DNA from: the human T2T-CHM13v2.0 reference genome, Homo sapiens
Direction: 5' to 3'
Assembly: GCA_009914755.4 (NCBI GenBank)
Contig: CP068257.2
Location: 11,456,001 to 11,520,000, forward strand
Length of the DNA: 64,000 nt
The stretch's first letter is position 1. The number at the start of each line of letters is the position of its first letter. A program made the position numbers and the translations under genes. Of the stretch, positions 3,340 through 38,260 are shown one piece after another. The notes under the pieces were generated by a model. The model did no database searches, had not been told where the DNA came from, and worked only from the letters and a program-made list of their open reading frames with translations.

Positions 3340-3653
3340 TTTTCTTTTTTTTTTTTTCTTTGGAGATGGAGTCTCCCTCTGTTGCCCAGGCTGGAGTGCA
3401 GTGGCACGATGTAGGCTCACTGCAACCTCCAGAACCTCCACCTCCTGGGTTCAAGTGATTCTCTTGCCTCAGCCTCCCAAGTAGCTGGGATTACAGGCAC
3501 CCGCCACCATGCCCAGCTATTTTTTGTATTTTTAGTAGTGACAGGGTTTCACCATGTTGGCCAGGCTGGTCTTGAACTCCTGACCTCAGGTCATCCACCC
3601 ACATCGGCCTCTCAAAGTGCTGGGATAATAGGCATGAGCCACCGCGCCCAGCC
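3340..3653 (-). mobile_element. Alu element (full length, reverse orientation)
   Basis: Poly-T at 3340-3360, then gagatggagtctccctctgttgcccaggctggagtgcagtgg ... gcatgagccaccgcgcccagcc. Confidence 0.9.
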
Positions 3654-5062
3654 AAAGGGAATATTTTTAATATTACGAGTCATAATTAATGATGAGAATT
3701 CCGCATGGCAGAGAAGAAGCCAAGATGAAGAGAATGTCGAGAAGACTCTAGTATATAGAAAATAATATATTTCAGAGTTGCTTGACTATCATGAGAAGAA
3801 AAAATGTTTAAACAAACTTATAGGGAGAAACAGCATAAAGTCAAGAAGTACAGGTTTGTAAGTTCTAAACATATGGCATTCCAGGAGGCAGAGTGAACAC
3901 TGCTCCTAATCTGAGACACAGTCACCTGAGAAAAAGCCATTTTTCTCTTCATCATCCTTCTCTAGCATTTCTTCTCAGGTGATATTCTCTGGACAAGTCA
4001 CACCTGCATCTTTGGAATATGCCTTTAAAGGAATCAGCACAATCTCTTCACCTGCTACCACCACAAACACAGGTAGAAAGATCCAGGCATGCAGAACATG
4101 TCCACCCATTTATGTTCTTTATAACAGGTGAGATTCAAGGACAGTGAGCTGCTCCACAAAGATCAAAATTTATCTTTCTCTTTTCCTGCCACAGACGCCA
4201 CAATTTCTGCTACAGCAATGGGGATATGGGCCACATTAACTTGTACCTACCAAATCCAACCATAGTAGACCCTGTGACCTCCCTTTGGAATAAAGTTTGA
4301 ACTCAACTCTCATGAATGTATTTTGAATTCCTCGTGTTTGACCCTGGCCTCAACCTGGAGTCACATGAGGCACTTAATTATATCAACAAGGATGCTTCCA
4401 CCCAGAACAATATACAGAGCCTGCGGGAAGGGCACAAGTGAAAAGATTTCTGCAACCTGGCCATGGAATCTTAATTAGAAGCCTGGGCCAAGAACCACTT
4501 AGCTAAGCATTGCCTCTCAAACTTCAATGTGCATATAAATCATTTGGTAACCCTGGCCCCACACTATGTAATGTGATTCTGCAGGTTTTAAAAGCATCCA
4601 TGAAAGTGCATTTTAAACACATCTCCTGTCAATGCTGATGTAGCTTCCACAGACCCATCATTAGTAGCATTTAGCTAGAAAAAGCAGGCATAGAACAGAC
4701 TCTCACACTCATCATTCATCACAACACAAATACTTCTGATCAAATAAACAATCAATCTCTATCCTGAAAAAACACATTCTTTGCTAGCTCTTTAAAGTTT
4801 ACAGAGACAGGAGAAGGCAACAATGTCTGAGTAAGTCTGCACTGAAAAACAACATGTACACATATACTTATGCAATGCTTATTAAGCAGGTACTATGTGC
4901 TCAGGAGTGTGTTACAGAGCACTGTGCTGGGAACATCACATTATGTGATTTAATCTTCAAAACAACTTGAGAGTTGGGTACTAAGTGTTCAATAATACTC
5001 AGAATTTAGATGAAGGGACCAGCATTGTTTTCTTCCCTGTTTATCTCTTAATGATTATTTTC

Positions 5063-5350
5063 GGGGGGGGACAGAGTTTCACTCATGTTGCCCAGGCTGG
5101 AAGTGCAATGGCACGATCTCAGCTCACCACAACCTCCGCTTCCTGGGTTCAAACCATTCTCCTGCCTCAGCCTCCCGAGTAGTTGGGATTACAGGCATGC
5201 ACCACGACACTGAGCTAAGTTTGTATTTTTAGTAGAGATGGGGTTTCTCCATATTGGTCAGGCTGGTCTTGAACTCCCGATCTCAAGTGATCCACGCACC
5301 TCGACCTCCCAAATTGCTAGTATTACAGGCATGAGCCACAGAGCCCGGCC
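5063..5350 (-). mobile_element. Alu element (reverse orientation) with an atypical G-run where the poly-T should be
   Basis: ttttcggggggggacagagtttcactcatgttgcccaggctggaagtgcaatggcacgatctcagctcac ... ggcatgagccacagagcccggcc. Confidence 0.85.
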
Positions 5351-8300
5351 TCTCACTGATTTTTTTAAAAAAATGTATGGCATAAGAGATAAATATAGAC
5401 AGATGGGAGGGATACAGAAAGGAAAGGGTTAAGTGTAGTTTAGAGGGATTTTTTAGTGTGTTTCTATTTACTTTCTTGTGACTTGTGGAGTAACTACTGG
5501 GATGGAATGTCTCTACAAGCACTGGTTTTAATTAGAAAGAAAGAAGTTAAGACCTCAAAATATATAGTTTATTGCTCTAATTTATCTGCTTTTGGGTTTC
5601 AGAATATTGTGAGCATAAGCTCTGGAGAGGCAGCAGGAGCCACCTCCCAAATCTCTGGTCTCCTCTAATGAGTTCTGTGAGGAGAGACTCCAGGGTGGGA
5701 CCAGACCTGAATGAGTCTCAGAAAATGGTGAATCTGGACAGAGCTGGGGTGGAGAAACTGTCCTATGTTGAATTATGATCTCTATACTGCTGGAGTACTT
5801 CTTGTTCTGTCTTTCCTAAGCCTGTCCAAGAGAAACTTAAGAGTTTGTATAATTTTAATCCATTTAGCCACTACTCTATTTTATAACGTATAATAATAAG
5901 CAATTTAACCAAAATTTTTAGGGCTTTCTAGGATAATTTTATTAGAAAATATGTATTCTTAGCAAGGTAAAAGCAATAGAAATACAAATAACTCTCCTGT
6001 TTGAGAATAGCTCTTCTGGTGGTGACATCAGAAGTCACAACAACATCAGAGCCATTGCCCAAGTCCCCTTAACACTCCCACTTTATTGTATTGACTATAT
6101 GATGCTTAATTAAACTATTTATCCAGTTGTTCTAGACTGAGAGTTTTTGAATGACAGGGACCATGACTGCTTCATCTATTTTTCTAAAGGCCATATGAAA
6201 TGGAGGCAATTTGTTTATCAGTCTGAGTCTCCAGAACTCCTGAATTTTTTGCCAAGGAAACTGGAGAAACTCTCGTCCAGGTACCAACCAAGGAGATTAT
6301 TTCTACAAAAGAAGGAACAGACACTGAATGACTCATTTCCCTTCCTCTCACATGGAAGCAGAATTAGACACTCCTGCCAGCCTGACCCAAGTCTGTACAG
6401 GACATCCTGAAATGTCTTAAAGATTCCCGGGTGATTGTGAGAGGATTCCTAGTGACCATGGACTGATGACCGTATGTTGATCCAGGTAGGAAAGACTCAA
6501 GCTGATTATAAATAGAAAATGGAACTGCCCTGGTACAGCTCCAGAACCTGGATCTATGTGTGATATCACCTGTTCTGATTAGCTAGGTCTTAGGTAAGAG
6601 AAAGGACAAGAATACTCTACTCCAGTATCACATTTTACAAATAGGTAAACTTATGTCATTGCTCTGGGTATTTTGTGGCTTTGATCTCTCCCTGCTGACA
6701 TGCATGTTTACACTTACAGATTGTGCAACCAGATTCTATTTACACCAGCAGCCTCTCACATAAACATAGCAGGTCACTGGAAAAGATCTGGAAAGCTCAA
6801 AGGGATACACTCTGAAAGGAGGGCTTTAAGATTTCTATGCTGACATCTCACAGATCAGAAAATGTCTCCTATGGGTTTTCTGTACATTCTCAATCCAAAA
6901 TCTGGCTCTCTCCTGTGATTCCCAGGGAGAGCTCAGCTCTTATGTACAGATTACAGGTAAGATCAACCTGACTCTTCATTCTTTGGTGTTACAGCAAGGA
7001 GAGTAAAAAAAAAAAAAAGTTTCCATCATAAAGTCTGCTCTAGGACATGATATGTCAGCCTAAAAAGAAAAGGTTAAGGCAACACTCATTTAAGTAGAGA
7101 ATTTATTTGGGCCAAGCCTGAGGATTGAAATCTGGGAGCATAGATTCAAGTTACCTTGAATGTACACTTTACTTAGCAGCAGTTACAAGTGGATTTACAA
7201 AGGCAAAAGAGAGGGACAGGGAGTGGACTGAAACAAAGTTGTTTGTCAGAAATTCTTCTCGATCTACAAAAATACATTGATGACTAATTGGCTATATATT
7301 TTTAAGCTGTGAGGTATTGCTTATAACATCTAGTGTGGCATTATTAGGTTAATTTATATCTACTTGTAGGGATAGCAAACAGTTTCAAGAGGCAAACATG
7401 TAGCTCAAAGGAGGCAGTAGAACATAATTATGTTCTCATTTTTATGTCTCTCCGAGCCTGATAAAACCAAAAGGACTTGCAATCCTCAGATCAAAGTTAT
7501 TCTTTTTCCTCTAATCTCAAGACCGAGATTCAGAATTTGGTATTGTAGATTTAGGTCCTGGATGGATGGAGAAATGGCAGGTGTTAACTGCACATTTATG
7601 GGAATTTGGGGAGGAGGAGAAAGAGGAACTTTGAGATACTCACATTTACTCAATGCACACATGTCACCCTAATTGTTCTTCTGGGCCTAATAGTCTCCAA
7701 CTCAGTTTCAGGTCTGAAGACACTATGGTCACTGAAAGAGGTGAAATGGCTGATTACTGTCCTGTGAATTTTGTCAACCACTTGTAGAAAGGCTTAACCT
7801 CTCTACGAGTGGTTGTAGAGGACTATAGATGTGAAACAGGCAGAGACACAAGTCTGCCTGCATACTCTGGGGGCAGTGTGCACTTTGAAGCACAACTGAC
7901 TGAGTTGACTGGAAGCCTGAGGGGGAAAGCCTTCTCTAAAATGAAGCTTGGGGGGCAATTTATACATATATACAATGTCTGGTAATTGTGAACAGGGTTT
8001 GAGAAATATAATTAAAAGGAAAATTATCTCCAGTCCTAGAAAAACCCCACAATAACAGACCAGAAAGAAAAGTGTTTTATTGCACAACAAAACCAGAATG
8101 TGATGTGACAAGAATCACAGACAATCTGCTCAAGAGATTGCAAAGACAGAAAGGTCTCTATAATTAGTCCTCAAGTAGAAGACTTGACAGCACCATTTGT
8201 CATACACAGTTTATCCTGAATTCACCTGGTAATTGGGGAGGCCATCTGTGTATGTTAATTGGTTATATTGAAAGGAAAAATAAACTTCTGACATCTTCAT

Positions 8301-9330
8301 GATACGAGATAGTTTTGCAACTTACAGCCAGGTGCCTGCTGAATGTAGGCTCTGGTTCTTTTACAGACACTGTGAAATAGGATACTATTCTTTTGGCTAT
8401 TTACATTTCAAAGCAAAGGGTCCCTACTCCCTAGGCCACGGGCTGCAGTAATCCTGCTTGCCCTGTCCTGGTGGCCTGTGTCCCATCTCTTCCCCTACCA
8501 TCTACCACTGAGGCACAGCTCACAGCACACAGCTGGCAGCCCACATTCCACATGGACTCCAACCACCACAGCTGCACTCCAGAGTCACATTATGGAGCAG
8601 GGTCCCTGAACTGCAGGAGGAGAACCTGCAGGACTCCTGGGTAGCATTGCACTTTTGCAATAATGGAAATGGGAGCAATGTTTCAGCTACGTTTCTATTT
8701 ATAATGGTGACAAAAAAATACTGCTGGATTCCCAGCATGGGTCTGGATAGAGTGCCAAAGAGTTCTCATTGTGACAGCCCAACTCACTCAGAAACACCAT
8801 GAGACACTTTTGGGTGTCCCTTCTGAAGACAGACACCGAAAGCATTGAAGAGAAAAACAGCTCTCAGTCTGAATAAAATTGTATTAAGAGGTTAAAGGTA
8901 TCTGAAAGAAAAATTCAGATTACATATAATATTAGCCAAGTCGACCAGAAAATACTCCCCTGAGACAGTTTCTCTCTAAACACCCAAAATGCACAGCTGC
9001 TCTCAACACAAGAAACACAGTGTTATGAAGAAAGGGGGCATATTCTCAGCAGAATTTCTTAAGATTTTTCTTCCATCTCTGCTGCTCTCTCATCTGCTGG
9101 CCATTGGATTGAGGATCTACACTGGAACACATCAGGCAACCTTCGCCAGCACTTTTTGATAAAGAATTGGAATTTGACTCTGTTTACATAGTAGAACTAT
9201 ATCTGAGATTGCAACATATCTAACTGAAGACTATTATGATTCATGATTTTTGGGTAGTCACATCACTTGCATTGATTTGTTCTGTAAGAGTGGCATTCCA
9301 AATATAGTAAAACATAAGAATAGACTGTGA

Positions 9331-9657
<327 letters not shown>

Positions 9658-9662
9658 CTATC

Positions 9663-9970
<308 letters not shown>

Positions 9971-10309
9971 ACCTATTATTATATCTATGGGATGAATTAA
10001 TAAGCATGTCAGATTAATATCTACTGTAACAATTAGATAGTAAATTTTCTTTGGATATTAGATATAAATATCTAAGTATAAATAATCTTAATATACTAGT
10101 AATGGCATACATTTTTAAAATTATCTGTAACCTTAACTCAGTTGTAATTATATTTCAAAAGAATAAATACTGATATTAAAATTACTATTTAAGGGATTTA
10201 TTCATAGTAAATAGTGTGGCCTTATATTCACATGATTGTAGAAAATACTGTTTAATTTACATGGATGAATGTTGTCTACTGAAGACTACATAAAACTATG
10301 TTAATTCTT

Positions 10310-10495
10310 TTTTAAATTTTTTTATTTAATTTTTTAAATTTATTATTACACTTTAAGTTTTAGGGTACATGTGCAAAATGTGCAGGTTTGTTACATATGT
10401 ATACATGTGCCATGTTGGTGTGCTGCACCCATTAACTCATCATTTAGCATTTGGTATATCTCCTAATGCTATCCCTCACCCATCCCCCCACACTG
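10310..10495 (-). mobile_element. L1 3'UTR/3'-end fragment, reverse orientation, 5'-truncated exactly at the satellite boundary
   Basis: Reverse complement of the L1PA 3' end: cactttaagttttagggtacatgtgcaaaatgtgcaggtttgttacatatgtatacatgtgccatgttggtgtgctgcacccattaactcatcatttagcatttggtatatctcctaatgctatccctcacccatcccccc. The A-tail appears as a T/A-rich run at about 10310-10345. Confidence 0.85.
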
Positions 10496-10496
10496 A

Positions 10497-13400
10497 CCTC
10501 ACATAGGATTCCAGAACACTGCTGGGTTCTGAGTGTTTGTCCCTCACATAGGATTCCAGAACTGTTCTGTAATCCTTTGTAAGGGATAAACATTCAGACC
10601 CTCGTAGCAGTGTTCCGGAATCCTATGTGAGGGACAAAAACTCAGAACCCAGCAGCAGTGTTCTGGAATTCTGTGTGAGCGACAAACATTCAGAACTTCG
10701 TAGCAGTGTTCTGGAATTCTATGTGAGGGACAAACACTCAAAACCCAGCAGCAGTGTTCTGGAATCCAATGTGAGGTACAAACACTCAGAACCCAGCAGC
10801 AGTGTTCTGGAATCCTATGTGAGGGAAAAACAGTCTGAACTCAGCAGCAGGTTTCCGGAATCCCATGAGAGGGACAAATACTCAAAACCCAGCAGCAGTG
10901 TTCTGGGATCCTATGTGAGGGACAAACACTCAGAAGCAGTGTTCTGGAACCTTATGTGAGGGACAAACACTCAGAACCCAGCAGCAGTGTTCTGGAATCC
11001 TATGTGATGGACAAACACCCAGAACCCATCCACTGTCTTCTGGAATCCTATCTGAGGGACAAACATTCAGACACTCGTAGAAGTGTTCTGGAATCCTATG
11101 TGAGGAACAAACACTCAGCAACCAGGAGCAGTGCTCTGAAATCCTTTGTAAGGGACAAACAAACAGAATCCAGTAGCAGGGTTCCAGAATCCTTTCTGAG
11201 GGAAAAACATTCAGACCCTCTTAGCAGTGTTCTGGAATCCTATGTGTGGGACATTCAGACCCTCATAGCAGTGTTCTGGAAACCAATGTGAGTGCCAAAC
11301 ACTCAGAACCCAGCAGCAGTGTTCTGGAATACTTGGTAAGGAACAAACATTCAGACAATCGTAGCATTGTTCTGGAATCCTAAGTGAGGGACAAACACTC
11401 AGAAATGAGCTACAGTGTTCTAGAATTCTATGTAAGGAACAAACCCTCAGTACCGAGCGGCAGTGTTCTGGAATCCTATGTGAGGGACAAACACTCAGAA
11501 CAAAGCAGCAGTGTTCTGGAATCCTCTGTGAAAGACAAACACTCAGATCCCAGCAGCAGTGTTCTGATACCCTATGTGAGGGACAAACACTCAGAACCCA
11601 GCCACTGTGCTCTGAAATCCTATCTGAAGGACAAACATTCGGAGCCTCGTAGAATTGTTCTGGAATCCTATGTGAGGGACAAACACTCAGAAACTTATAG
11701 CAGTGTTCTGGGATCCTTTGTGATGGACAAACAAACAGAGCCCAGCAGCAGTGTTCTGGAATCCTATTTGACAGACAAACACTCAGAACTCAGAAGCAGT
11801 GTTCTGGAATCCTTTGTGAGGGACAAACATTCAGAACCTAGTAGCAGTGTTCTGGAATTGTATGTGAGGGACAAACACTCAGAACCCAGCAGCAGTGTTC
11901 TGGAATCCTATGTGAGTGACAAACACTAAGAAACCAGCAGCAGTGTTCTAGACTCCTTTGTGAGGGACAAACATTCAGACCATCGAAGCAGTGTTCTGGA
12001 ATCCTGTGTGAGGGACAAACACTCAGATCCAGCAGCAGTGTTCTAAAATCCTTTGTGATGGACAAAAATTCAGACCGTCGTAGCCGTTTTCTGGAATCCA
12101 AAGTGAGGGACAAACACTCAGAACCCAGCAGCAGTGTTCTGGAATCCTATGTGAGGGACAAACATTCAGAACCCAGCAGCAGTGTTCTGGAATACTCTGT
12201 GAGGGAAAAACATTCAGACCCTCGTAGCAATGTTCTGGAATCCTATATGAGGGGCACACACTCAGAACCCCGCAACAGTGTTCTGGAGTCCTTTGTGAGG
12301 GAAAAACATTCAGACCCTCGAAGCAGTGTTCTGGAATCCTATGTGAGGGACAAACACTCAGAACCCAGCAGCAGTGTTCTGGAATCCTGTGTGAGTGTCA
12401 AACATTCAGAACCCAGCAGCATTGTTCTGGAATCCTATTTGAGCGACAAACATTCAGAACTTCGTACCTGTGTTCTGGAATGCTATGTGAGAGACAAACA
12501 CAGAACCGAGCAGCAGTGTTCTGGAATCCTATGTGAGGGAGAAACACTCGGAACCCAGCAGCAGTGTTCTGGAATCCTATGTGAGGGTCAAACACTAAGA
12601 ACCCAGCAGCAGTGTTCTGGAATCCTTTGTGAGGGACAAACATTCAGAACCTTGTAGTAGTGTTCTGGAATTTTATGTGAGGGAAAACACTCTGAACCCA
12701 ACAGGAGTGTTTTGGAATCCCATGTGAGGGACAAACACACAGATCCCCGCAGCAGTGCTCTGGAATACTTTGTGAGGGACAAACATTGAGACTCTCAAAG
12801 CAGTTTTCTGGAATCCATTGTGAGGGACAAACAGTCAGAACCCACCGCAGTGTTATGAATCCTTTGTGACGGACAAACATTCAGACCATCGTAGCAGTGT
12901 TCTGGTATCCTGAGTGAGGGACAAACACTCAGAAACCAGCAGCAGTGCTCTGGATTCCTTTGTGAGGGGTAAACAAACAGAACCCAGCAGGAGAGTTCTG
13001 GAATCCTATGTGAGGGACAAACACTCAGAACCCAGCAGCAGTTTTCTGGAATCCTTTGTGAGGGACAAGCATTCAGAAACTCGTAGAAGTGTTCTGGAAA
13101 CGTATGTGCGTGACAAACACTAAGAAACCAGCAGAAGTGCTCCCGAATCCTTTGACAGGGACAAACAAATAGAAACCAGCCACAGTGTTCTGGAAGCCTT
13201 TGTGGGGGAAAAACATTGAGACCCCCGTAGCAGTGTTCTGGAATCCTATATGAGGGACAAACACTCAGAACCCAGCAGCAGTGCTCTGGAATCCTTTGTG
13301 AGGGACAAACATTCAGACACTCAGCAGTGTTCTGGAATCCTATGTGAGGGGAAAACATTCAGATCGTCGTAGCATTGTTGTGGAATTCTATATATGGGAC

Positions 13401-16400
13401 AAACACTCAGAACCCAGCAGCAGTGCTCTGGAATCCTATGTGAGGGAAAAACACCCAGAACCCAGCAGGATTGTTCTGGAATGCTATGTGTGGGACAAAC
13501 ACTCAGAACCCAGCAGCAGAGGTCTGGAATCCTATGTGAGCTACACTCAGAACACAGCAGCTGTGTTCTGGAATCCTTAGTGACGTACAAAGTTTCAGAA
13601 CCTCACAGCAGTGTTCTGGAATCGTATGTGAGGGACACTCAGAACCCAGCAGCAGTGTTCTAGAATCCTTTGAGAGGGAAAAACATTCAGACCCTTGGAG
13701 CAGTGTTCTGGAATACTATGTGATGGACAAACACTCAGAACCCAGCAGCAATGTTCTGGAGTCCTTTGTGATGGACAAACATTCTGACCCTAGTAGCAGT
13801 GTTCTGCAATCCTATGTGGGGGACAAACACTCAGAACCCAGCAGCTGTGTTCTGGAATCCCATGTGAGGGATAAACTCTCAGAACCCAGCAGCAGTGTTC
13901 TGTAATCCTATATGAGTGAGAAACACTCAGAACCCTGCAGCAGTTTTGTAGATTCCACTGTGAGATACAAACATTCAGACCCTCGTAGAAGTGTTCTGGA
14001 ATCCTATGTGAGGGAAAAACTCTCAGAAACCTGCAGCAGTGCACTGGAGTCCCTTGTGAGGGACAAACAAACACAACTGAGCAGCAGTGTTCTGGAATCC
14101 TTTGAGAGGCAAAAATATTCAGACCCTCGTAGCAGTGTTCTGGAATCCTATGTGAGGGACAAACACTCAGAACCCAGCAGCAGTATTCTGGAATCCTATG
14201 TGGGGGACAAACACAACCCAGCCGCAGAGTTCTAGAATCCTCTGTGAGCGACAAACATTCAGAAATTCATAGCAGTATTCTGAAATCCTATATGAGGGAC
14301 AAACACTCAGAACCCAGCCACTGTGTTCTGGAATCCTATGTGTGGGACAATCATTCAGACCCTCGTAGCTGTGTTCTGTAATCCTATCTGAGGGACAAAC
14401 ATTCAGACCTTCGTATCAGTGTTCTGGAATCCTATGTGAGGGACAAACTCTCAGAACCCAGCAGCACTGTTCTGGAATCCTATGTGAGGGACAAACACTC
14501 AGTACCCAGCAGCAGTACTCTGGAATAATTTGTGAGGGACAAACATTCAGATCCTCGTAGCAGTGTTCTGGAATCTTATGTGAGGGACAAACACTCAGTA
14601 CCCAGCAGCAGTACTCTGGAATAATTTGTGAGGGACAAACATTCAGATCCTCGTAGCAGTGTTCTGGAATCTTATGTGAGGGACAAACACTTAGAACCCA
14701 GCAGCACTGTTCTGGAATCCTATGTGAAGGACAAACACTCTTAACCCAGCAGGAGTGCTCTGGACTACTTTGTGAGGGACAAACATTCAGACAATCATAG
14801 CAGTGTTCTGGAATCGTATGTGAGGGACAAACACTCAGAACCCAGCAACAGTGTTTTGGAATCCTATGTGAGGGACAAACCCTCAAACCTAGCAGCAGTG
14901 TTCTGTAATCCAATGTGAGGGGCAAACAGAGAGAACCCAGCAGCAGTGCTCTGTAATACTTTGTGACGGACAACATTCAGATAATCGTAGCAGTGTTCTG
15001 CAATCCTATGTGAGAGACAAACCCAAAGAAACCAGCAGCAGTGTTCTGGAATCCTATGTGAGGGACAAACCCTCAGAACCTAGCGGCAGTGTTCTGGAAT
15101 CCAATGAGAGGGACAAACACTCAGAACTCAGCAGCAGTGTTCTCTAATCCTTTGTGAGGGACAACATTCAGATCCTCGTAGCAGTGTTCTGGAATCCTAT
15201 GTGAGAGACAAACACTAAGAAACTAGCAGCAGTGTTCTGGAATCCTATGTGTGGGACAAACACTCAGAACCCAGCAGCAGTGTTCTGGAATCCTTTGTGA
15301 GGGTCAAACACTCAGACTCTCAGAGCAGTGTTCTGGAATCCTATGTGAGGGACAAGCATTCAGACCCTCATAGCACCATTCTGGAATGCTCTGTGAGGAA
15401 CAAATATTCAGACCCTCATAGCAGTGTTCTGGAATCATATGTGAGGTACAAAATCTCAGAACTCAGAAGCAGTATTCTTTAATTCTATGTGAGAGACAAA
15501 CCCTCAGAACCCAGCAGCAGTACTCTGGAATAATTTGTGAGGGACAAACATTCAGACAATCACAGCAGTGTTCTGGAAACCAATGTGAGGACCAAACACT
15601 CAGAACCCAGCAGCAGTGTTCTGGAATATTTGGTAAGGGACGAACATTCAGACAATCTTAGCAGTGTTCTGGAATCCAAAGTGACGGAGAAACACTCAGA
15701 AACGAGCTGCAGTGTTCTAGAATTCTATGTGAGGGACAAACACTCAGAACCCAGCAGCAGTGTTCTGGAATCCTTAGTGAATGACAAACGCTCAGAACCC
15801 AGAAGTAGTGTTTTAGACTGGTTTGTGAGATACAAACATTCAGACCCTCAAAGCAGTGTTGTGGAATCCTATTTGAGGGACAAACACTCATCACACAGCC
15901 ACTGTGTTCTGGAATCCTATCTAAAGGACAAATATTCGGAGCCTCTTAGAAGTGTTCTGGAATCCTATGTCAGGGACAAACATTCAGAAACCAGCAGCAG
16001 TGCTCTGGAATCCTTTGTGAGGGACAAACAAACAGAGCCCAGCAGCTGTGTTCTGGAATCCGATTTGATGGACAAACACTCAGAACCCAGCAGCAGTGTT
16101 CTGGAATCCTTTGTGAGGGACAAACATTAAGATCCTCAGAGAAGTGTTCTGGAATCCTATGTGAGAGACAAACACTCAGAACCCAGCAGCAGTGTTCTAG
16201 AATCCTATGTGAAGGACAAACACTCAGAGCCCAGCAGCAGTGTTCTGCAATCCTTTGTAAGGGTCAAACACTCAGACGCTCAGAACAGTGCTCTGTAATC
16301 CTATGTGAGGGATAAACACTCTGAACCCTGCAGCAGTGTTCTGGATTCATATGTGAGGGACAAGCATTCAGATCCCGATAGCCCTGTTCTGCAATGCTCT

Positions 16401-19400
16401 GTGAGGGTCAAACATTCAGAACCTCATAGCAGTGTTCTGAAATACTATGTGAGGTACAAAGCCTCAGAACTCAGCAGTAGTGTTCTGGAATCCTATGTGA
16501 GTGACAAACACTCAGAAACCAGCAGCAATGTTCTAGAATCCTTTGTGAGGGACAAACATTTAGACTCTCGAAGCAGTGTTCTGTTATCCTATGTGAGGGA
16601 CACTCAGATCCAGCAGCATTGTTCTAGAATCTTTTGTGATGGACAAACATTAAGGTCCTCGTAGCAGTTTTCTGGAATCCTATGTGACGGGGCAAACACT
16701 CAGAACCCAGCAGCAGTGTTCTGGAATCCAGTGTGTGGTACAAACACTCAGAACCGAGCCAGTGTGTACTGGAATCCTATCTCAGGGCTAAACATTCAGA
16801 CCTTCACAGAAGTGATCTGGAATCCTATGTGTGCAACAAACACTAAATAACCAGCAGCAGTGCTCTGGAATCCTTTGTGAGGGACAAACAAACAGAAACC
16901 AGCAGCAGTGTTCTGGAAGTCTTTGTGAGGGAAGAACATTCAGACCCTCGTAGCAGTGTTCTGGAATCCTACGTGCGGGACAATCACTCAGAAGCCAGCA
17001 GCACTGTTCTGGAATCCTATGTGAAGGACAAATATTCAGAACCCAGAATCAATGGATTCCTAAGTGAAGGATAAACTCTCAGAACTCAGCAGCAGTTGTC
17101 TGCAATCTTTTGTGAGGGACAAATATTGAGACTCTCAAACCAGTGTTCTGGAATCCTATGTAAGGGACAAGCATTCAGAGTCTCATAGCAGTACTCTGGA
17201 ATCCTATATGAGGTACAAACACGAAAAACCCAGCAGCAGTGTTCTGGAATCCTATGTGAGGGACAAACACTCAGAACCTAGCAACAGTGATCTGGAATCC
17301 TATATGAGGGACAAACATTCAGACCCTCGTAGCAGTGTTTTGGAATCCTTTGTGAGGGACAAACAATCAGGAACCAGCAGCTTTGTTCTGGAATCCTATG
17401 GGATAGATGAACACTCAGAACCCAGCATCAGTGTTCTGGAATCCTTTGTGAGGGACAAGCAATCAGGACACAGCAGCTCTGTTCTGGAATCCTATGTGAG
17501 GGACAAACGTTCAGACCCTCGTATTAGTGTTCTGGAATCCTATGGGAGGGACTTACAAACAGAACCCAGTGACAGTGTTCTACAATCCTTTGTTAGGGAA
17601 AAACATTCAGACCCTCGTAACAGTCTTTTGAATCCTATGTGAGGGAAAAACATTCAGACCCTCATAGTAGTGTTCTGGAATCTTATTTGAGGGGCAAACA
17701 CTCAGAACCCAGCAGCAGTGTTCTGGAATCCTTTGGGAGGGATAAACATTCAGACCCCCTTAGCAGTGTTCTGGAATCCTATGTGAGGGACAAACACTCA
17801 GAACCCAGCAGCAGTGTTCTGGAATCCTATCTGAAGGAAAACATTCGGAACCTCTTAGAAGTTTTCTGGAATCCTATGTGAGGGACAAACACTCTGAAGC
17901 CAATAGCAGTGTTCTGGTATCCTATATGAGGGACAAACACTCAGAACCCAGCAGAAGTGTTCTGGAATCCCATATGAGGGACAAACACAAACCAGCAGCA
18001 AATGTTCTGGAATCCTATGTGAGGGACAAACATTCAGACCCTAGGAGCAGTGTTCTGGAATCCTATGTGAAGGACCAACAGTAAGAACCCAGTAGCAGTG
18101 TTCTGGAATCCTATGTGAGGGACAAGAATTCAGACACTCGTAGCAGTGATACAGAATGCTTTCTGAGGGGAAAAACATGCAGACCCTCATAGCAGTGTTC
18201 TGAAATCCTATGTGAGGGACAAACACTCAGAAGCCAGCAGCAGTGTTCTGGAATCCTTTGTGTCGGACAAACACTCAGAACTCAAAAGCAGTGTTCTGGA
18301 ATCCCTTTGAGGGACAAACACTCAGACCCTCATAGCAGTGTTCCGGAATCGTATGTGAGGGACAAACTTTCAGAACCCAGCAGCAGTGTTCTGGAATCCT
18401 TGGTGAGGAAGAAACTTTCAGACCCTCTGAGCAGTGTTTTGGAATCCTATGTTTGGGACAAACACTCAGAACCTAGCAGCTGTGTTCTGCAATCCTATGT
18501 GAGGGACAAACACTCAGAACCCACAAGCGGTGCTCTGGACTCTTTGTGAGGGACAAACATTCCTACATTTTAGCAGTGTTCCAGAATCTCATGTGATAGA
18601 GAAACGCTCAGAACCCAGCAGCAGAGTTCTAGAATTCTACGTGAGGGACAAACCCTCATAACCTAGCAGCAGTATTCTGCAATTCTAATTGAAGGACAAA
18701 CCTTCAGAACCCAGCAGCAGTGTTCTCGTACTCAATGACAGGGACAATCCCTCAGATCCCAGCAGCAGTTTTCTGGAAACCTATGTGAGGAACAAACACT
18801 CAGAACCCAGCAGCAGTGTTCTGGAATCCAATGTGAGGGACAAACACTCAGAAACCAGCAGCAGTGTTCTGGAATCCTATGTGAGGGACAAACACTCAGA
18901 ACCCAGCAGCATTTTTCTGAAATCCTTTGTGAGAGACAAACTTTCATAGCCTTGTAGCTGTGTTCTGGAATCCTATATGTGGAACAAACACTCAGAGCCC
19001 AGAAGCAGTGGTCTGGAATCCTGTGTGAGGGACAAACACTCAGACCCTCGAAGCAGTGTTCTGGAATCCTGTGTGAGGGACAAACATTCAGATCCAGCAG
19101 CATTGTTCTGGAATCCTTTGTTATGGACAAACCTTCAGATGCTCATAGCAGTTTTCTGGAATCCCTTGTGAGGGACAAACACTCAGAACCCAGCAGCAGT
19201 GTTCTGGAATCCTCTGTGAGTGACAAACACTCAGAAACCAGCAGCAGTGTTCCAGCATCCTTTGTGAGGGACAAACACTCAGACCCTCGAAGCAGTGTTC
19301 TGGAATCCTATGTGAGGGACCAACACTCAGAACCCAGCCACTGTGTACTGGAATCCTATCTGAGGGACAAATATTCAAACCACCGCAGAAGTGTTCTGGA

Positions 19401-20108
19401 ATCCTATGTGCAGAACAAACACTAAGAAACCAGCAGCAGTGCTCTGGAATCCTTTGTGGGGGACAAACAAACAGAACCCAGCAGCGTTCTGGAATCCTTT
19501 GTGAGGGAAAAACTTTCAGACCCTCATAGCAGTGTTCTGGAATCCTATATCAGGGACAAACACTCAGAACCCAGCAGCAGAGTTCTGCAATCCTTTGTGA
19601 GGGAAAAACATTGAGACCCTCTTAGCAGTGTTCTTGAATCCTACATGAGGGAAAAACATTCAGACCCTCATAACATTGTTCTGGAATCCAATATAAGGGA
19701 CAAGCACTCAGAACCCAGCAGCATTGTTCCAGAATCCTATGTGAGGGACAAACACTCAGAACCCAGCAGCAGTGTTCTGGAATCCTATGTGAGCCACAAA
19801 CATTCAGAACTTCATAGCAGAGTTCTGGAATCTTATGTGAGGGACAAACACTCAGAACCCAGCAGCAGTGTTCTGGAATCCTATGTGAGGGACAAACACT
19901 CAGAACCCAGCAGCAGTGTTCTGGAATCCTTTGTGAGGGACAAACATTCAGAACCTCATAGCAGTGTTCTGGAATCGTATGTGAGGGATAACACTCTGAA
20001 CCCAGCAGGAGTGTTTTTGAATCCCATGTGAGCAACAATCACTCAGAACCCTGAAGCAGTGTTCTGGAATCCTATGTTAGTGACAAACTCTCAGAACCCA
20101 GAAGCAGA
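10497..20108. repeat. Tandem satellite array, 48-bp unit, ~200 copies, ~9.6 kb
   Basis: Consensus unit gtgagggacaaacactcagaacccagcagcagtgttctggaatcctat, repeated head-to-tail throughout. Two frequent subtypes: ...cactcagaacccagcagcagtg... and the CpG-bearing ...cattcagaccctcgtagcagtg.... A minor subtype reads ...aaacaaacagaacccagcag.... The first ~1.4 units (10497-10562) are in inverted orientation. Confidence 0.95.
14491..14682. repeat. Exact 96-bp (two-unit) tandem duplication inside the satellite array
   Basis: acaaacactcagtacccagcagcagtactctggaataatttgtgagggacaaacattcagatcctcgtagcagtgttctggaatcttatgtgaggg occurs twice back to back with no mismatch. Typical neighbouring units differ at several positions. 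Confidence 0.9.
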
Positions 20109-21157
20109 GGGAAAAGAAACTACCAAGTGTAGCCAAGATGGCCGAATAGGAACAGCTCCGGTCTACAGCTCCCAGTGTCAGCAATGCAGAAGATGGGTGA
20201 TTTCTGCATTTCCATCTGAGGTACCAGGTTCATCTCACTAGGGAGTGCCAGACAGCAGATGCAGGACAGTGGGTGCAGTGCACAGTTCATGAGCCGAAGC
20301 AGGGTGAGGCACTGCCCCACTCGGCAAGTGCAAGGGGTCAGGGAGTTCCCTTTCCTAGTCAAAGAAAGGGGTGACAGACAGCACCTGGAAAATCGGGTAA
20401 CTCCCACCATAATACTGCGCTTTTCTGATGGTCTTAACAAATGGCGCACCAGGAGATTATATCCTGCACCTGGCTCAGAGGGTGATACGCCCACGGAGTC
20501 TCGCTGATTGCTAGCACAGCAGTCTGAGATTAAACTGCAAGGCAGCAGCAAGGCTTGGGGAGGGTCGCTCACAATTGCCCAGGCTTGCATAGGTAAACAA
20601 AGTAGCCAGGAACTCGAACTGGGTGGAGCCCACCACAGCTCAAGGAGGCCTGCCTGCCTCTTTAGGCTCCACCTCTGGGGGCAGGGCGCAGACAAACAAA
20701 AAGACAGCAGTAACCTCTGCAGACTTAAATGTCCCTGTCTGACAGCTTTGAAGAGAGCAGTGGTTCTCCCAGCACACAGCTGGAGATCTGAGAACAGGCA
20801 GACTCCCTCCTCAAGTGGGTCCCTGACCCCTGACCTCCAAGCAGCCTGACTGGGAGGCACCCCCCAGTACAGGCAGACTGACACCTCACACGGCCGGGTA
20901 CTCCTCTAAGACAAAACTTCCAGAGGAACGATCAGACAGCAGCATTCGCGGTTCATGAAAATCTGCTGTTCTGCAGCCACCACTGCTAATACCCAGGCAA
21001 ACAGGGTCTGGAGTGGACCTCTAGAAAACTCCAACAGACCTGCAGCTGAGGGTCCTGTCTGTTAGAAGGAAAACTAACAAACAGAAAGGACATCCACACC
21101 AAAAACCCATCTGTACATCACCATCATCAAAGACCAAAAGTAGATACAACCACAAAG

Positions 21158-22170
21158 ATGGGGAAAAAACAGAGCAGAAAAATTGGAAATTCTAAAAAGC
21201 GAGCACCTCTCCTCCTCCAAAGGAATGCAGTTCCTCACCAGCAATGGAAAAAAGCTGGGCGGAGAATGACTTTGACGAGTTGAGAGAAGGCTTCAGACGA
21301 TCAAACTACTCTGAGCTACAGGAGGAAATTCAAACCAAAGGCAAAGAAGTTAAAAACTTTGAAAAAAATTTAGACGAATGTATATCTAGAATAACCAATA
21401 CAGAGAAGTGCTTAAAGGAGCTGATGGAGCTGAAAGCCAAGGCTCGAGAACTACGTGAAGAATGCAGAAGATTCAGGAGCCGATGTGATCAACTGGAAGA
21501 AAGGGTATAAGTGATGGAAGAAGAAATGAATGAAATGAAGCGAGAAGGGAAGTTTAGAGAAAAAAGAATAAAAAGAAATGAGCAAAGCCTCCAAGAAATA
21601 TGGGACTATGTGAAAAGACCAAATCTACGTCTGATTGGTGTACCTGAAACTGACGGGGAGAATGGAACCAAGTTGGAAAACACTCTGCAGGATATTATCC
21701 AGGAGAACTCCCCCAATATAGCAAGGCAGGCCAACATTCAGATTCAGGAAATACAGAGAATGCCACAAAGATACTCCTTGAAAAGAGCGATTCCAAGACA
21801 CATAATTGTCAGATTCACCATAGCTGAAATGAAGGAAAAAATGTTAAGGGCAGCCAGAGAGAAAGGTCGGGTTACCCACAAAGGGAAGCCCATCAGACTA
21901 ACAGTGGATCTCTTGGCAGAAACTCTAGAAGCCAGAAGAGAGTGGGGGCCAATATTAAACATTCTTAAAGAAAAGAATTTTCAATGCAGAATTTCATATC
22001 CAGCCAAACTAAGCTTCATAAGTGAAGGAGAAATAAAATACTTTACAGACAAGCAAATGCTGAGAGATTTTGTCACCACCAGGCCTGCCCTAAAAGAGCT
22101 CCTGAAGGAAGCACTAAACATGAAAAGGAACAACCAGTACCAGCCGCTGCAAAATCATGCCAAAATGTAA
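21158..22170 (+). pseudogene. L1 ORF1 (RNA-binding protein p40), disrupted
   Basis: Track ORFs 21244-21510 and 21511-22170 together read the ORF1p sequence (…LDECISRITNTEKCLKELMELKAKARELREECRRFRSRCDQLEERV* then MMEEEMNEMKREGKFREKRIKRNEQSLQEIWDYVKRPNLRLIGVPE…). There is a 1-nt deletion soon after the ATG (aaaaagcgagcacctctcc versus the expected aaaacgcagagcgcctctcc) and a TAA at 21508-21510. Confidence 0.85.
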
Positions 22171-22233
22171 AGATCATCGAGACAAGGAAGAAACTGCATC
22201 AACTAACGAGCAAAATAACCAGCTAGCATCATA

Positions 22234-26055
<3,822 letters not shown>

Positions 26056-28519
26056 ACAATGAGAACACACAGACACCGGAAGGGGAACATCACACTTCAG
26101 GGACTGTTGTGTGGTGGGGGGAGGGGGGAGGGATAGCATTAGGAGATATTCCTAATGCTAAATGACGAGTTAATGGGTGCAGCACACCAACATGGCACAT
26201 GAATACTTATGTTGCAATCCTGCACATTGTGCACATGTATCCTAAAACTTAAAGTATAATAATAAAATAAAATAAAATAAAAAAGCAAAATATACACTAA
26301 TACAGATTAACCAACTAAAAAAAGTAGAGAAAGGTTATTTAAAAAATATAAAGCATACAGTAATAATCTAACACGTTGAAATCTAAGAAGGAGAAAACAG
26401 CTGGTCTGAACAGCATTTTAAGTGGCAATGTTAGAGGTTTTATCAAAATTGACCAATAATATTAATCCACAGGTTCAGGAGGCTTTGCAAACCAAATGAA
26501 AACACACAGAGAGGACACACCTAGGAACATAATGGGACAATTTCTGAAAAGTAAAAGAAAAATGTCAAAAGCACTTGATAAAAAAATTGGGCTAACTATA
26601 AACAGAAAGAGTTGACTGATGACAACCTTCTCAAATGAAACTATGAAAGCCAACAAGTGAGGTATTGATACCTTTCAAGTCCTGAAATAAAATAAGTGCC
26701 GACCTAGAACTGTCTACTTGGTGGATATATCCATCAAAAGCAAAGATACAATAAAGAATTTATCCCAAGCAGACCCACAGGAAAAGAAATACTAAAGATT
26801 ATTCTTCAGGTAGAAGAGCTATGATCCCTGATGAAAGTTTGCAGTTAGAAGAACGCTTTTTTTAATGAAAGAAATAAACATAGAGAGAAATTTAATTGGA
26901 TATCGACTGTATAACAGAATACTATCTCATAAAGTTTAAAATGCATCTTCCATACAACAGCAGAAGCATATAAGTTGTGAGTTGGATAAATTAATTTTAA
27001 AATATTGTCAAGTTTTTTTGCAAATAGACAAATGTACCAATTATATTAGACCCTGAATGCACGTTGTAATAAACCAGTTAAAACATAATCAGACCAGATT
27101 TTTTAAATGGACTCTCTTAAAGTTTTTAAAATTTATATTTATATTTCACATATGTTGAAATTAAATAATGGAAAAGCATGCAATGCAAATATTAAACAAA
27201 ATATAGCTTTAGTTGTACTTATATTCACATTTAAAAAGTTGGACACAGTTAAGTCTCAGTGATTTTTTTACACAACGGAGGCAAGCTGTGCAGTTATAAC
27301 TAGTATTATGTTATGCTCTTGGCCTGATTACAGAAGGGAAAGGGGCACTCATACCAGATAATGGCAGAATGAAGCAACAAGGAGTAGAGTTACAGAACAT
27401 GATGCTGTAACTGGGACTGGAGTTACTCTTTTAGAGTTAAAGAATAGTAAACTGGACAAAATATATGAAACTTTTTTTGAAATACTGAACATCAGGCAGC
27501 ACAGGACTGTGCTCCGCAAGAGAAAAGAAGGAGCCAGAATGACTCCTGCTTTATTCCCAGGTTCTCCGTGACAGCAGTAGAGAGGAATCCCAGAGAGAGC
27601 AGACATTGTCATTGCACTGAGGAACCAGATAAAAACCAAAATGTTAAGCAGCTGGAATATGTAGTAGAAGAGAACGTTTACAGAAAAAGGAACCAATAAT
27701 CAGCCTAAGGTTTCTCCCAAGTCCCTAAGCCAAATGTACATAGGATGAAATTCTAAGGAGCTCAGCAAAGGACTACCAGGGAGTTGGAAGAACACTTCCC
27801 TGGCATCACATGACAGGAAGACATGTTAGCTCTGACCAGCCAGAGAAGGGAATCCCCTCTGTACTTCCAGGATATTCAGTAAAGACCACTGGAGGTTCAT
27901 GCCCTAGTGACAGTGCTCATTTAGCTCCAAATTACAGATGGCTCTAGACTAACTCAACAAAGTCTAAAGAGAAGATTTAAAACAACAACAGAAAAATAGT
28001 CATCCTGAAGTTACTGAACTGCCTGCCACAACATTGTTCAAATGTAGCCAATAAAATCTAGATATTCAATAGCATAACATCAAAATACCCCCCCCCCAAA
28101 AAAAACTCTGACATGCAAAGAAGCCGGAAGATATATATTATTAAGATATACATTAAGAGGAAAAAATAAGTCATTTATCAATGACAGAAGAAGGAATTTT
28201 CAAGGTCCTTAATGTAATTATATTTTATAAATACATATAGATAAATACATATATATGTCAAAGTACTTAAATGAAAATTGAACATAGGAGAAAAATGGAA
28301 GTTATAAAATGAAAAATGTGACACGTATAGATGAAAAATAAATATTTGAAATAAAAATTCCATGAGATAGAATAAGTCATGGATTTTACCCTAACATCAG
28401 AAAATATATAGAAAAATTAGAAGCTTTACAAACTAAAGGACAAAGGGTAAACTAAAATAAGAAATCCAGAAACTCACTGATACGTGAGACAATATGCAGC
28501 AGTGTAACATACATTTAAT

Positions 28520-34414: not shown

Positions 34415-38180
<3,766 letters not shown>

Positions 38181-38260
38181 TGTTACAGAATGTTTAGTGA
38201 CTAGAAATACAATGATAATGTCCAATAAATAAATATATTTTACAAAAAATAAAATAAAAT
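38181..38260 (+). other. Probable short 3' transduction plus a second A-rich tail belonging to the L1 insertion at 34443-38260
   Basis: Non-L1 sequence gatgttacagaatgtttagtgactagaaatacaatgataatgtccaataaataaatatattttac, followed by aaaaaataaaataaaataaa, lies between the L1 A-tail and the right-hand copy of the 13-bp target-site duplication aaaatacattttt (34430-34442 and 38261-38273). Confidence 0.5.

What the first reader, a model, noticed from the sequence alone, without database searches (positions are those of the whole stretch)
10488..10570. Array begins with ~1.4 inverted units, creating a palindromic junction next to a truncated L1
Positions 10497-10562 read cctcacataggattccagaacactgctgggttctgagtgtttgtccctcacataggattccagaac. 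This is the reverse complement of the unit. The rest of the array is in direct orientation starting tgttctgtaatcctttgtaag. The switch creates a near-perfect palindrome (ggattccagaac | tgttctg-aatcc) centred near 10562. It lies a few nucleotides from the 5'-truncated end of an inverted L1 3' fragment at 10495. Fold-back junctions of this kind are signatures of breakage and repair or template switching.
Basis: seen in the sequence. Interest (0 to 1): 0.55.

Follow-up and report, generated by a model that had tools for sequence, protein, structure and literature searches.

The report
Inverted satellite stub at L1 junction
A 9.5-kb block of the known human 48-bp CER satellite starts with 66 bases of the same repeat in the opposite direction, joined directly to the cut-off end of an L1 retrotransposon; this is a real, old rearrangement scar of a familiar kind, most likely left by an untidy L1 insertion.

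Summary
Positions 10497-10562 are the reverse complement of 1.4 units of the 48-bp satellite that fills 10563-20107. They match the array consensus at 66/66 bases apart from one CAG deletion. This creates a head-to-head junction centred on T10563 and a 66+69-nt imperfect palindrome (ssDNA hairpin -51.9 kcal/mol, z -12). The repeat fits the known CER (D22Z3) satellite.

It is not a literal fold-back of the neighbouring units. All 10 substitutions separating the arms lie on the direct arm, and none of about 200 direct units carries the CAG deletion.

The stub has the same orientation as the adjoining 5'-truncated L1 3' fragment (10340-~10495, A-rich tail 10308-10339). No target-site duplication flanks either the L1 alone or the L1 plus stub.

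The array's other edge lies 23 nt from the 5' end of a full-length L1 that also lacks a duplication. The array itself contains no L1 endonuclease motifs.

Three metagenome contigs, probably human DNA, carry the identical junction, two of them from a copy about 5% diverged. The structure is therefore old and not an assembly artefact.

Best reading (about 0.45): a non-canonical L1 integration at the array edge added templated CER sequence at its 5' junction. Interest is low to moderate.

The parts
10308..10339 (-). A-rich tail of the L1 fragment, read as T-rich on the + strand. The run TTTTTT at 10308-10313 could be the target-derived primer of target-primed reverse transcription.
   Evidence: Sequence read. 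Alignment to other L1 3' ends and tails. The tail is conserved, with indels, in contig L003.
10340..10493 (-). 5'-truncated L1 (L1PA-type) 3'-end fragment of about 155 nt.
   Evidence: BLAST to three other L1 3' ends in the window gives 86-94% identity, with homology detectable to 10489-10491. MAFFT alignment A1.
10494..10496 (.). Three bases (TGA on the + strand, TCA in L1 sense) of ambiguous origin at the L1/CER joint. They are either the last L1 bases or filler.
   Evidence: Alignment A1. CER identity starts at 10497.
10497..10562 (-). Inverted CER stub: 21 nt plus one 45-nt unit. It matches the consensus at 66/66 bases with one CAG deletion and has the same orientation as the L1 fragment.
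   Evidence: Identical in contigs L001, L002 and L003.
10557..10569 (.). Perfect 6+1+6 palindromic core CAGAAC-T-GTTCTG at the head-to-head junction, centred on T10563. There is no microhomology in the direct sense.
10497..10632 (.). Imperfect palindrome with arms of 66 and 69 nt, 59/66 identical. It can form a hairpin or cruciform.
   Evidence: -51.9 kcal/mol, z -12.1. Control. Arm comparison.
10563..20107 (+). Direct CER (48-bp) satellite array of 200 units. It has no higher-order repeat and a mean of 86% identity to consensus. It starts at unit position 1, ends at unit position 48, and has no TTTTAA or TTAAAA motif.
20108..20130 (.). 23-nt non-CER spacer between the array end and the L1 5' end.
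   Evidence: No CER similarity above chance.
20131..26290 (+). Near full-length L1 whose 5' end faces the right edge of the array. No target-site duplication was detectable.

Best explanation
The 66-nt stub is a by-product of a non-canonical L1 integration at the left edge of a pre-existing CER array.

Shown directly:
- A 5'-truncated L1 3' fragment with an A-rich tail ends at a T-run in AT-rich flank.
- Its 5' end is joined directly to 66 nt of CER in the same orientation as the L1.
- That stub is joined, blunt and head-to-head, to the array.
- No target-site duplication is present.

Inferred sequence of events:
1. Target-primed reverse transcription started at the T-run (10308-10313) outside the array. 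It had to start there because the array offers no endonuclease sites.
2. Reverse transcription of L1 RNA stopped about 155-190 nt in.
3. The 3' end of the cDNA was extended by a template switch onto a consensus-like CER template of 'direct' polarity. This was either CER RNA or single-stranded CER DNA from another unit or another copy. A CAG slipped out during copying.
4. The extended end was ligated by end joining to a broken end of the array, and the intervening target DNA was lost, which accounts for the missing duplication.

The outcome is a 66+69-nt imperfect palindrome. It has since been inherited, and duplicated, unchanged.
For: 1. The stub has the same orientation as the L1 and abuts its truncation point with at most 3 ambiguous bases.

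2. No target-site duplication flanks the L1 or the L1 plus stub. The best match, TAATTCTTT/TAATCCTTT, is equalled by 30% of shuffles. Two other L1s in the same window show duplications: 14 nt with one mismatch and a 9-nt exact repeat correctly placed, though the scored alignment for that control was not itself significant (27% of shuffles as good).

3. The array's other edge lies 23 nt from the intact 5' end of a full-length L1 that also lacks a duplication. A random breakpoint would rarely fall at an L1's 5' terminus. L1 5' junctions and array edges therefore appear linked.

4. The array has 0 TTTTAA/TTAAAA motifs in 9.5 kb, against 3.4 per kb elsewhere. This explains why both L1s point their 5' ends at the array.

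5. The stub is not a copy of the adjacent units, so it needs a separate template.

6. There is experimental precedent in PMC11702581. 5'-truncated L1 insertions show a broad range of target-site outcomes, including deletions. Three insertions carried inverted genomic DNA at the reciprocal end, three carried templated genomic insertions, and ORF2p can copy DNA templates.

7. Sense-oriented partners fused 5' of truncated L1s are the rule for L1 chimeras (bioRxiv 10.1101/2025.02.02.635956).
Against: - There is no proof that the L1 and the stub arrived together. No empty-site or L1-only copy could be retrieved.
- The missing target-site duplication is equally expected if a later breakpoint cut an older L1.
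- The stub ends within 1 nt of the unit phase at which the array starts. The model gives no specific reason for this.
- The stub's perfect match to the consensus is unusual: 0 of 197 array stretches are perfect and the median is 59/66. No model tested explains it.
- The palindrome region is much less diverged between the two copy lineages than the L1 and flank (0-2 differences in about 300 nt against about 5%). That could mean the stub has a different, younger history than the L1.
- No satellite/L1 chimera is listed in the preprint read.
Confidence: 0.45

Rival explanations
1. The event was independent of L1. An older, longer minus-strand L1 lay near the array. A later double-strand break, or a duplicative-transposition breakpoint, cut the L1 about 190 nt from its 3' end and was repaired to the array. 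The 66 inverted bases are then either a templated inverted insertion (replication-based template switching of the MMBIR/FoSTeS type, or polymerase-theta-like synthesis) or the remnant of a once larger inverted CER block.
For: - The missing target-site duplication is then expected.
- The region belongs to a satellite family found in heavily rearranged acrocentric and pericentromeric DNA (PMC3847771 and PMC6942050).
- The head-to-head joint is blunt and without microhomology, which suits end joining.
- The palindrome region has a different divergence history from the L1 and flank.
Against: - The shared orientation of the stub and the L1 would be coincidence (probability 0.5).
- A second, full-length L1 without a duplication has its 5' terminus 23 nt from the other array edge. 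Random breakpoints do not explain this.
- A remnant of an old inverted array should be about as diverged from the consensus as the other units (86%), not 100%.
Confidence: 0.3
2. A literal fold-back. The broken left end of the array folded back on itself or fused with its sister, copying the first 1.4 units in reverse. The L1 is only a neighbour.
For: - The orientation is head-to-head with only a 1-nt spacer, and both arms start at the same phase of the unit.
- The hairpin potential is strong.
- Foldbacks associated with L1 are documented (PMC11702581).
Against: - The arms should have been identical at birth and should have diverged symmetrically. Instead all 10 substitutions and the 3-nt difference are on the direct arm, and the inverted arm is pure consensus.
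- The CAG-deleted boundary occurs in no direct unit.
- The reading can be rescued only by assuming a later in-register replacement of the first direct units.
Confidence: 0.06
3. One complex event. A free CER block, for example a linearised circular multimer (hence exactly 200 units with both ends at the same phase), was stitched into this site between two L1 cDNAs primed on opposite ends of a break.
For: - Both flanking L1s have their 5' ends facing inward and their poly-A ends outward, and both lack target-site duplications.
- The array is an integral 200.0 units, starting at unit position 1 and ending at position 48.
- Insertions built from two oppositely oriented reverse-transcribed pieces are documented (PMC11702581).
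Against: - No duplication or other relation exists between the outer flanks of the two L1s.
- The two L1 copies are only about 90% identical over the 174 nt they share, and their subfamilies and ages were not compared.
- The 23-nt spacer and the 66-nt stub are left unexplained.
- The phase coincidence was noticed after the fact.
Confidence: 0.08
4. The feature is an artefact: a misassembly, or a diverged direct unit misread as inverted.
For: None found.
Against: - The reverse-complement alignment scores 123 against 13 for direct orientation.
- The identical junction appears in three independent contigs made by different assemblers from different samples.
Confidence: 0.01

Closest known systems
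CER (D22Z3) 48-bp satellite of human acrocentric short arms and the chr14/chr22 pericentromeres (Metzdorf 1988; Floutsakou 2013, PMC3847771; van Sluis 2019, PMC6942050)
   Same: A 48-bp tandem unit in a kilobase-scale block embedded among L1 and Alu elements. Units include the GAATTC-containing variant described as the K111 integration site in CER:D22Z3 (PMC3759726).
   Different: Those papers describe blocks, their orientation and HERV-K insertions. None of the passages read mentions an inverted stub or an L1 at a block edge. Identity to the Repbase CER consensus rests on my memory and could not be tested here.
Non-canonical L1 insertions with target-site rearrangement: target deletion, inverted or templated genomic DNA at the 5' junction (PMC11702581; L1 insertion-mediated deletions, Gilbert 2002, Symer 2002, Han 2005, the last three from my own knowledge)
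   Same: A 5'-truncated L1 with a poly-A tail at a T-run, no target-site duplication, and a short piece of local-type genomic sequence in inverted orientation between the L1 5' end and the target.
   Different: Here the inverted piece is not a copy of the adjacent target bases. Contemporaneity with the L1 is inferred, not shown.
L1 chimeric retrocopies (U6/L1, Alu/L1 and others; template switching or RNA ligation; bioRxiv 10.1101/2025.02.02.635956)
   Same: A non-L1 partner sits directly 5' of a short 5'-truncated L1, in sense orientation, and shares one poly-A tail.
   Different: The defining target-site duplication around the chimera is absent. The partner would be a satellite RNA, which is not among the reported partners. 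The partner is only 66 nt and starts and ends within repeat units.
Fold-back inversion junctions (hairpin-capped ends, breakage-fusion-bridge, replication template switching)
   Same: Head-to-head orientation with a spacer of 0-1 nt, producing a palindrome.
   Different: The inverted arm is only 66 nt long and is not a copy of the adjacent arm. There is no large inverted duplication.
L1 twin priming (5' inversion)
   Same: An orientation switch at the 5' side of an L1 insertion. A textbook example lies in the same window at 34439-36183(-)/36183-38156(+).
   Different: In twin priming the inverted piece is upstream L1 sequence and a target-site duplication is kept. Here the L1 itself is not inverted, the switch lies within satellite DNA, and there is no duplication.

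Membership tests
CER / D22Z3 satellite | Tandem repeat with a 48-bp period | tested here: met
   TRF: period 48, 200.0 copies, 10563-20107. 174 of 199 parsed units are exactly 48 nt.
CER / D22Z3 satellite | Sequence identity to the curated CER consensus (Repbase/Dfam) | not testable with these tools
   No repeat library is available. The assignment rests on my recollection, the 48-bp period, and GAATTC-bearing units like those reported as the K111 target in CER:D22Z3.
CER / D22Z3 satellite | Location on acrocentric short arms or the chr14/22 pericentromeres | not testable with these tools
   No human reference genome was searchable, so the window's origin is unknown.
Fold-back (hairpin-derived) inverted duplication | Two arms head-to-head with little or no spacer | tested here: met
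   1-nt centre (T10563), with both arms starting at unit positions 1-2.
Fold-back (hairpin-derived) inverted duplication | The inverted arm is a copy of the adjacent arm: identical at birth, with symmetric later divergence | tested here: not met
   59/66 identity. All 10 substitutions relative to consensus are on the direct arm and 0 on the inverted arm, and the CAG deletion is unique to the inverted arm.
Canonical L1 insertion by target-primed reverse transcription | L1 3' end with a poly-A tail at a T-rich endonuclease-type site | tested here: met
   A-rich tail at 10308-10339, ending in TTTTTT/AAA on the + strand. The endonuclease motif itself cannot be verified without the empty site.
Canonical L1 insertion by target-primed reverse transcription | Target-site duplication of roughly 7-20 bp flanking the insertion | tested here: not met
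   No repeat better than chance flanks the L1 alone or the L1 plus stub. Two other L1s in the window show candidate duplications by eye or exact match.
L1 chimeric retrocopy (U6/L1 type) | Non-L1 partner immediately 5' of a 5'-truncated L1, in sense orientation | tested here: met
   The CER stub and the L1 are both on the minus strand, joined with at most 3 nt of filler.
L1 chimeric retrocopy (U6/L1 type) | Target-site duplication flanking the whole chimera | tested here: not met
L1 chimeric retrocopy (U6/L1 type) | The partner is an expressed RNA of the matching strand | not tested
   No expression data were available, and no CER transcript literature was examined.
L1 twin priming (5' inversion) | The inverted segment is L1 sequence from upstream of the direct segment, and the target-site duplication is retained | tested here: not met
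   The segment of opposite orientation is satellite, not L1, and there is no duplication. Contrast the genuine case at 34439-38156.
Non-canonical L1 integration with target rearrangement | 5'-truncated L1 without a target-site duplication, plus inverted or templated genomic DNA at the 5' junction | tested here: met
   Anatomy. The category is described in PMC11702581.
Non-canonical L1 integration with target rearrangement | The L1 and the extra DNA arrived in one event | not testable with these tools
   This needs an empty site or intermediate state in another haplotype, paralogue or species. All three retrieved contigs already carry the full structure.

The most novel reading that the evidence does not exclude
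L1 machinery physically joins or disperses satellite DNA. On this reading the stub is reverse-transcribed CER RNA fused to L1, which would be a satellite/L1 chimera, a partner class not reported in the chimera survey I read. Alternatively or additionally, the whole 200-unit block, whose two ends sit at the same unit phase, was stitched into this site by two L1 cDNAs that left no target-site duplications. A related reading is that the palindrome is a recurrent break site. Repair from the paralogue would then explain the roughly 300-nt island of identity between copies that are otherwise about 5% diverged.
Probability: 0.12. Interest if true: 0.6.

Novelty: new member of a known kind. Interest (0 to 1): 0.3.

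Why it matters
The junction shows at base resolution how one edge of a CER satellite block was formed. Both edges of the block are L1 5' junctions without target-site duplications, and the block itself has no L1 endonuclease sites. If comparison with complete human and ape genomes confirms that the L1 and the stub arrived together, this locus would be a natural, germline-fixed example of the untidy L1 integrations so far documented mainly in cell culture and tumours. It would also suggest that L1 helps shape or trim satellite-block boundaries in acrocentric and pericentromeric DNA. If they did not arrive together, it is an ordinary end-joining scar. In either case the 136-nt palindrome is a candidate fragile or gene-conversion site.

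Tried and rejected
1. 'Diverged direct unit' is rejected: alignment score 13 in direct orientation against 123 in reverse.

2. A literal fold-back of the adjacent units is rejected by the arm asymmetry and the unique CAG deletion.

3. Target-site duplications were sought in three configurations: around the L1, around the L1 plus stub, and between the outer flanks of the two L1s. None was found.

4. Degenerate CER in the left flank. A permissive pairwise alignment of the minus strand of 10228-10298 gave z about 4.6. A profile HMM built from the array found nothing there at E <= 10, so I treat this as unsupported.

5. A template switch through the unit's own CAGAAC...GTTCTG inverted repeat. By hand derivation this predicts a 10-nt CCAGCAGCAG spacer, which is absent. 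The consensus hairpin is also weak (-3.5 kcal/mol, z -0.7).

6. A duplicate of the left flank elsewhere in the window: none.

7. External searches. Genome contigs found nothing for the junction or the CAG-deleted boundary. Viral contigs found nothing for the CER consensus. Three exact-protein look-ups of junction-spanning ORFs found nothing. The accession numbers of the contigs appear in no paper. No supplementary text was held for the CER probe sequence.

8. A higher-order repeat structure that might point to a source unit: none, with flat identity of about 0.76-0.77 at all lags.
Full report
**What is there**

Tandem Repeats Finder reports a single 48-bp array from 10563 to 20107. It has 200.0 copies at 76% matches, with consensus TGTTCTGGAATCCTATGTGAGGGACAAACACTCAGAACCCAGCAGCAG. 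A both-strand scan finds direct-oriented units from 10556 to 20111. Reverse-oriented units occur only at 10492-10571, apart from three 24-27-nt chance or quasi-palindromic hits.

The array has no higher-order periodicity. Unit-to-unit identity is about 0.76-0.77 at every lag, mean identity to consensus is 86%, and 4 of 199 parsed units equal the consensus.

A 48-bp satellite of this kind is known as CER (D22Z3). [quoted passage not shown] I could not test sequence identity to the curated consensus.

**Checking the observation**

The reverse complement of 10497-10562 matches the consensus at 66 of 66 aligned bases with one 3-nt CAG gap, score 123. In direct orientation the best score is 13.

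The switch to direct orientation is at 10562/10563.
- CAGAAC-T-GTTCTG (10557-10569) is a perfect palindrome.
- 11 of 12 positions pair out to 10551-10575.
- The two arms (10497-10562 and 10564-10632) agree at 59 of 66 positions.

As single-stranded DNA, 10490-10635 folds into one long hairpin of -51.9 kcal/mol, z = -12.1. An interior piece of the array of the same length gives -13.1 kcal/mol, z = +0.7.

To the left, a minus-strand L1 3' end is confirmed against three other L1 3' ends in the window. Its body spans 10340 to about 10493-10495 and its A-rich tail spans 10308-10339. Three bases at the joint are of ambiguous origin.

**Not an artefact, and old**

An exact-pattern scan of public metagenome contigs for the L1/CER joint returned two contigs. 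A search with a junction-spanning ORF returned a third. These are presumably human DNA in the samples, but that is an inference because the sample origins could not be looked up.

All three contigs carry the L1 truncation point, the 66-nt stub and the head-to-head joint base for base.
- L001 is about 99.5% identical to the window over 1.5 kb, with one 48-nt unit indel.
- L002 and L003 share derived bases with each other and represent a second lineage.
- Against the window, L003 differs at 11/238 positions in the left flank and 10/157 in the L1 body. It differs at 0/66 in the stub and 3/167 in the first direct units.
- L002 differs at 6/114 in the L1, 0/66 in the stub and 2/240 in direct units 1-5. 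Further into the array it differs at 8-19% per unit, with unit-scale indels.

The whole configuration of left flank, L1, stub and array therefore predates a split of about 5%.

**Why it is not a simple fold-back**

If the array end had been copied back on itself, the arms would have started identical and drifted symmetrically. Instead the inverted arm has no substitution relative to the consensus, and the adjacent direct arm has ten plus the extra CAG (one-sided p about 0.001).

The CAG-deleted boundary AACCCAGCAGTGTTC occurs in none of the direct units. None of 197 in-phase 66-nt stretches of the array matches the stub perfectly. The best is 65/66 and the median is 59/66. The stub was therefore templated by a consensus-like unit other than its neighbours.

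The joint itself has no microhomology in the direct sense (read).

**Links to L1**

1. The stub has the L1's orientation, not the array's.

2. No target-site duplication flanks the L1 or the L1 plus stub. The best candidate, TAATTCTTT/TAATCCTTT, is matched or beaten by 30% of shuffles and by 10% of phase-matched array positions. Two other L1s in the window do show duplications. One is AAAAA[T/A]GTAAATT around the 49.3-49.75-kb fragment. The other is ATTAAAATA around the twin-primed element at 34.4-38.2 kb; this is an exact 9-mer in the right places, although the scored alignment for that control was not significant.

3. The right edge of the array (20107) lies 23 nt from the 5' terminus of a near full-length plus-strand L1 (20131-26290). 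That L1 also has no detectable duplication, not even a shared 6-mer between its flanks. A random breakpoint would seldom land at an L1's 5' terminus.

4. The array has no TTTTAA or TTAAAA motif in 9.5 kb, against 3.4 per kb in the rest of the window. Target-primed reverse transcription must therefore start outside the array. This fits both L1s having poly-A ends outward and 5' ends toward the array.

5. There is experimental precedent in PMC11702581. 5'-truncated L1 insertions show a wide range of target-site outcomes, including deletions. A few insertions carry inverted genomic DNA at the reciprocal end or extra templated genomic DNA. ORF2p can copy DNA templates, and L1-associated foldbacks occur.

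6. Sense-oriented partners fused 5' of truncated L1s are typical of template-switch or RNA-ligation chimeras. Those, however, are flanked by target-site duplications (bioRxiv 10.1101/2025.02.02.635956).

**Most likely mechanism (confidence about 0.45)**

An L1 of an older L1PA type began reverse transcription at the T-run at 10308-10313 in AT-rich flank. The subfamily statement is my own reading of diagnostic bases and was not tested. Reverse transcription stopped after roughly 155-190 nt. The nascent strand then switched to a CER template of direct polarity, either RNA or single-stranded DNA, and copied 66 nt while losing one CAG by slippage. It was ligated blunt to a broken end of the array, with loss of the intervening target DNA.

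The anatomy, the orientation, the lack of a duplication and the lack of endonuclease sites are shown directly. The order of events, the nature of the template and the contemporaneity of the L1 and the stub are inferred.

**Rivals**

- An L1-independent break that cut an older L1 and was repaired with a templated inverted insertion, or that left a remnant of a larger inverted block (about 0.3). This explains the missing duplication equally well. It explains neither the shared orientation nor the second L1 at the other edge.
- A literal fold-back (about 0.06). It survives only if the first direct units were later replaced in register.
- A single complex event in which a free, possibly circle-derived, CER block was stitched in by two L1 cDNAs (about 0.08). 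The integral 200 units and the two inward-facing L1s lacking duplications hint at it. No relation between the outer flanks supports it.
- Artefact (about 0.01).

**Unexplained**

1. Three CER breakpoints fall within 1 nt of the same unit phase, CAG^T^GTTCTG: the array start, the array end and the stub end. This was noticed after the fact, and the nominal chance is about 10^-3. The consensus unit-boundary hairpin is weak (-3.5 kcal/mol, z -0.7), so structure-directed cleavage is not well supported.

2. The stub is a perfect consensus copy.

3. An island of near-identity of about 300 nt (10479-10802) separates the two copy lineages, flanked by about 5% divergence on the left and at least 8% on the right. 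Gene conversion centred on the palindrome is an attractive explanation. Mosaic short-read assembly is the dull one.

**Verdict**

This is a real, old and well-defined junction of a known class, in a known satellite. It is a neat natural example of a probably L1-coupled satellite-edge rearrangement, but it is not a new kind of element. Interest is 0.3, and the novelty class is a new member of a known kind.

Noticed in passing
window 10479-10802, compared with L002 and L003: There is an island of near-identity (0-2 differences in about 300 nt) centred on the palindrome, between two copy lineages. The same lineages differ by about 5% in the L1 and left flank and by 8-19% per unit deeper in the array. 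Possible causes are palindrome-centred gene conversion or mosaic short-read assembly.
   Followed up: partly
window 20108-26290: A near full-length plus-strand L1 has its 5' end 23 nt from the right edge of the CER array and shows no detectable target-site duplication. Both L1s that face the array therefore lack one, while two other L1s in the window have one.
   Followed up: partly
window 10563 and 20107: The array is an integral number of units (TRF 200.0 copies). It starts at unit position 1 and ends at position 48, and the inverted stub ends at position 2. Three breakpoints thus fall within 1 nt of the same phase.
   Followed up: partly
window 10563-20107: The 9.5-kb CER array has no TTTTAA or TTAAAA (L1 endonuclease-type) motif, against 3.4 per kb in the rest of the window. 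GC content is 46% against 37%.
   Followed up: yes
window 10300-10336 (minus strand) versus 38160-38197: The A-rich tail and the first ~12 flanking bases of the L1 fragment are 36/38 identical to the tail and flank of the unrelated, younger-type L1 at 38 kb (…AAATAAAAAAATTTAAAAAAGAATTAA[C/A]ATA). The L1 bodies are only 86% alike and the flanks beyond do not match. This is unexplained and may be low-complexity coincidence.
   Followed up: partly
window 34439-36183 (-) and 36183-38156 (+): This is a textbook twin-primed (5'-inverted) L1: positions about 2438-4187 are inverted next to 4192-6160, with a candidate 9-nt target-site duplication ATTAAAATA at 34427 and 38169.
   Followed up: partly
window 13546-13572 and 13831-13855: Variant unit boundaries (CAGAACACAGC-A-GCTGTGTTCTG) turn the natural 23-nt quasi-palindrome of the CER unit junction into a perfect or near-perfect 11-bp stem (-9.6 kcal/mol, z -4.6, against -3.5 for the consensus). 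This resembles quasi-palindrome correction.
   Followed up: partly
window 10228-10298, minus strand: A permissive pairwise alignment finds weak CER-like similarity in the AT-rich left flank (z about 4.6 against shuffles). A profile HMM built from the array does not detect it (E > 10).
   Followed up: yes
window 9326-9632 and 9659-9990: Two Alu elements lie in inverted orientation, about 30 nt apart (75% self-complementary over 630 nt), just left of the AT-rich flank.
   Followed up: no
window 24575-24601 and 36441-36467 (antisense to L1): An L1 ORF2-region segment read antisense (AGCAGTGTTTTGTAGTTCTCTATGAAG) weakly resembles the CER unit start (AGCAGTGTTCTGGAATCCTATGTGAGG). The nhmmer E-values are 1.1 and 3.2, so this is probably chance.
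   Followed up: no
window 57992-58217, 58674-58939, 43540-43616: There are two short tandem duplications (117 bp x1.9 at 83% matches, and 131 bp x2.0 at 96% matches) and an (AGAA)n microsatellite.
   Followed up: no
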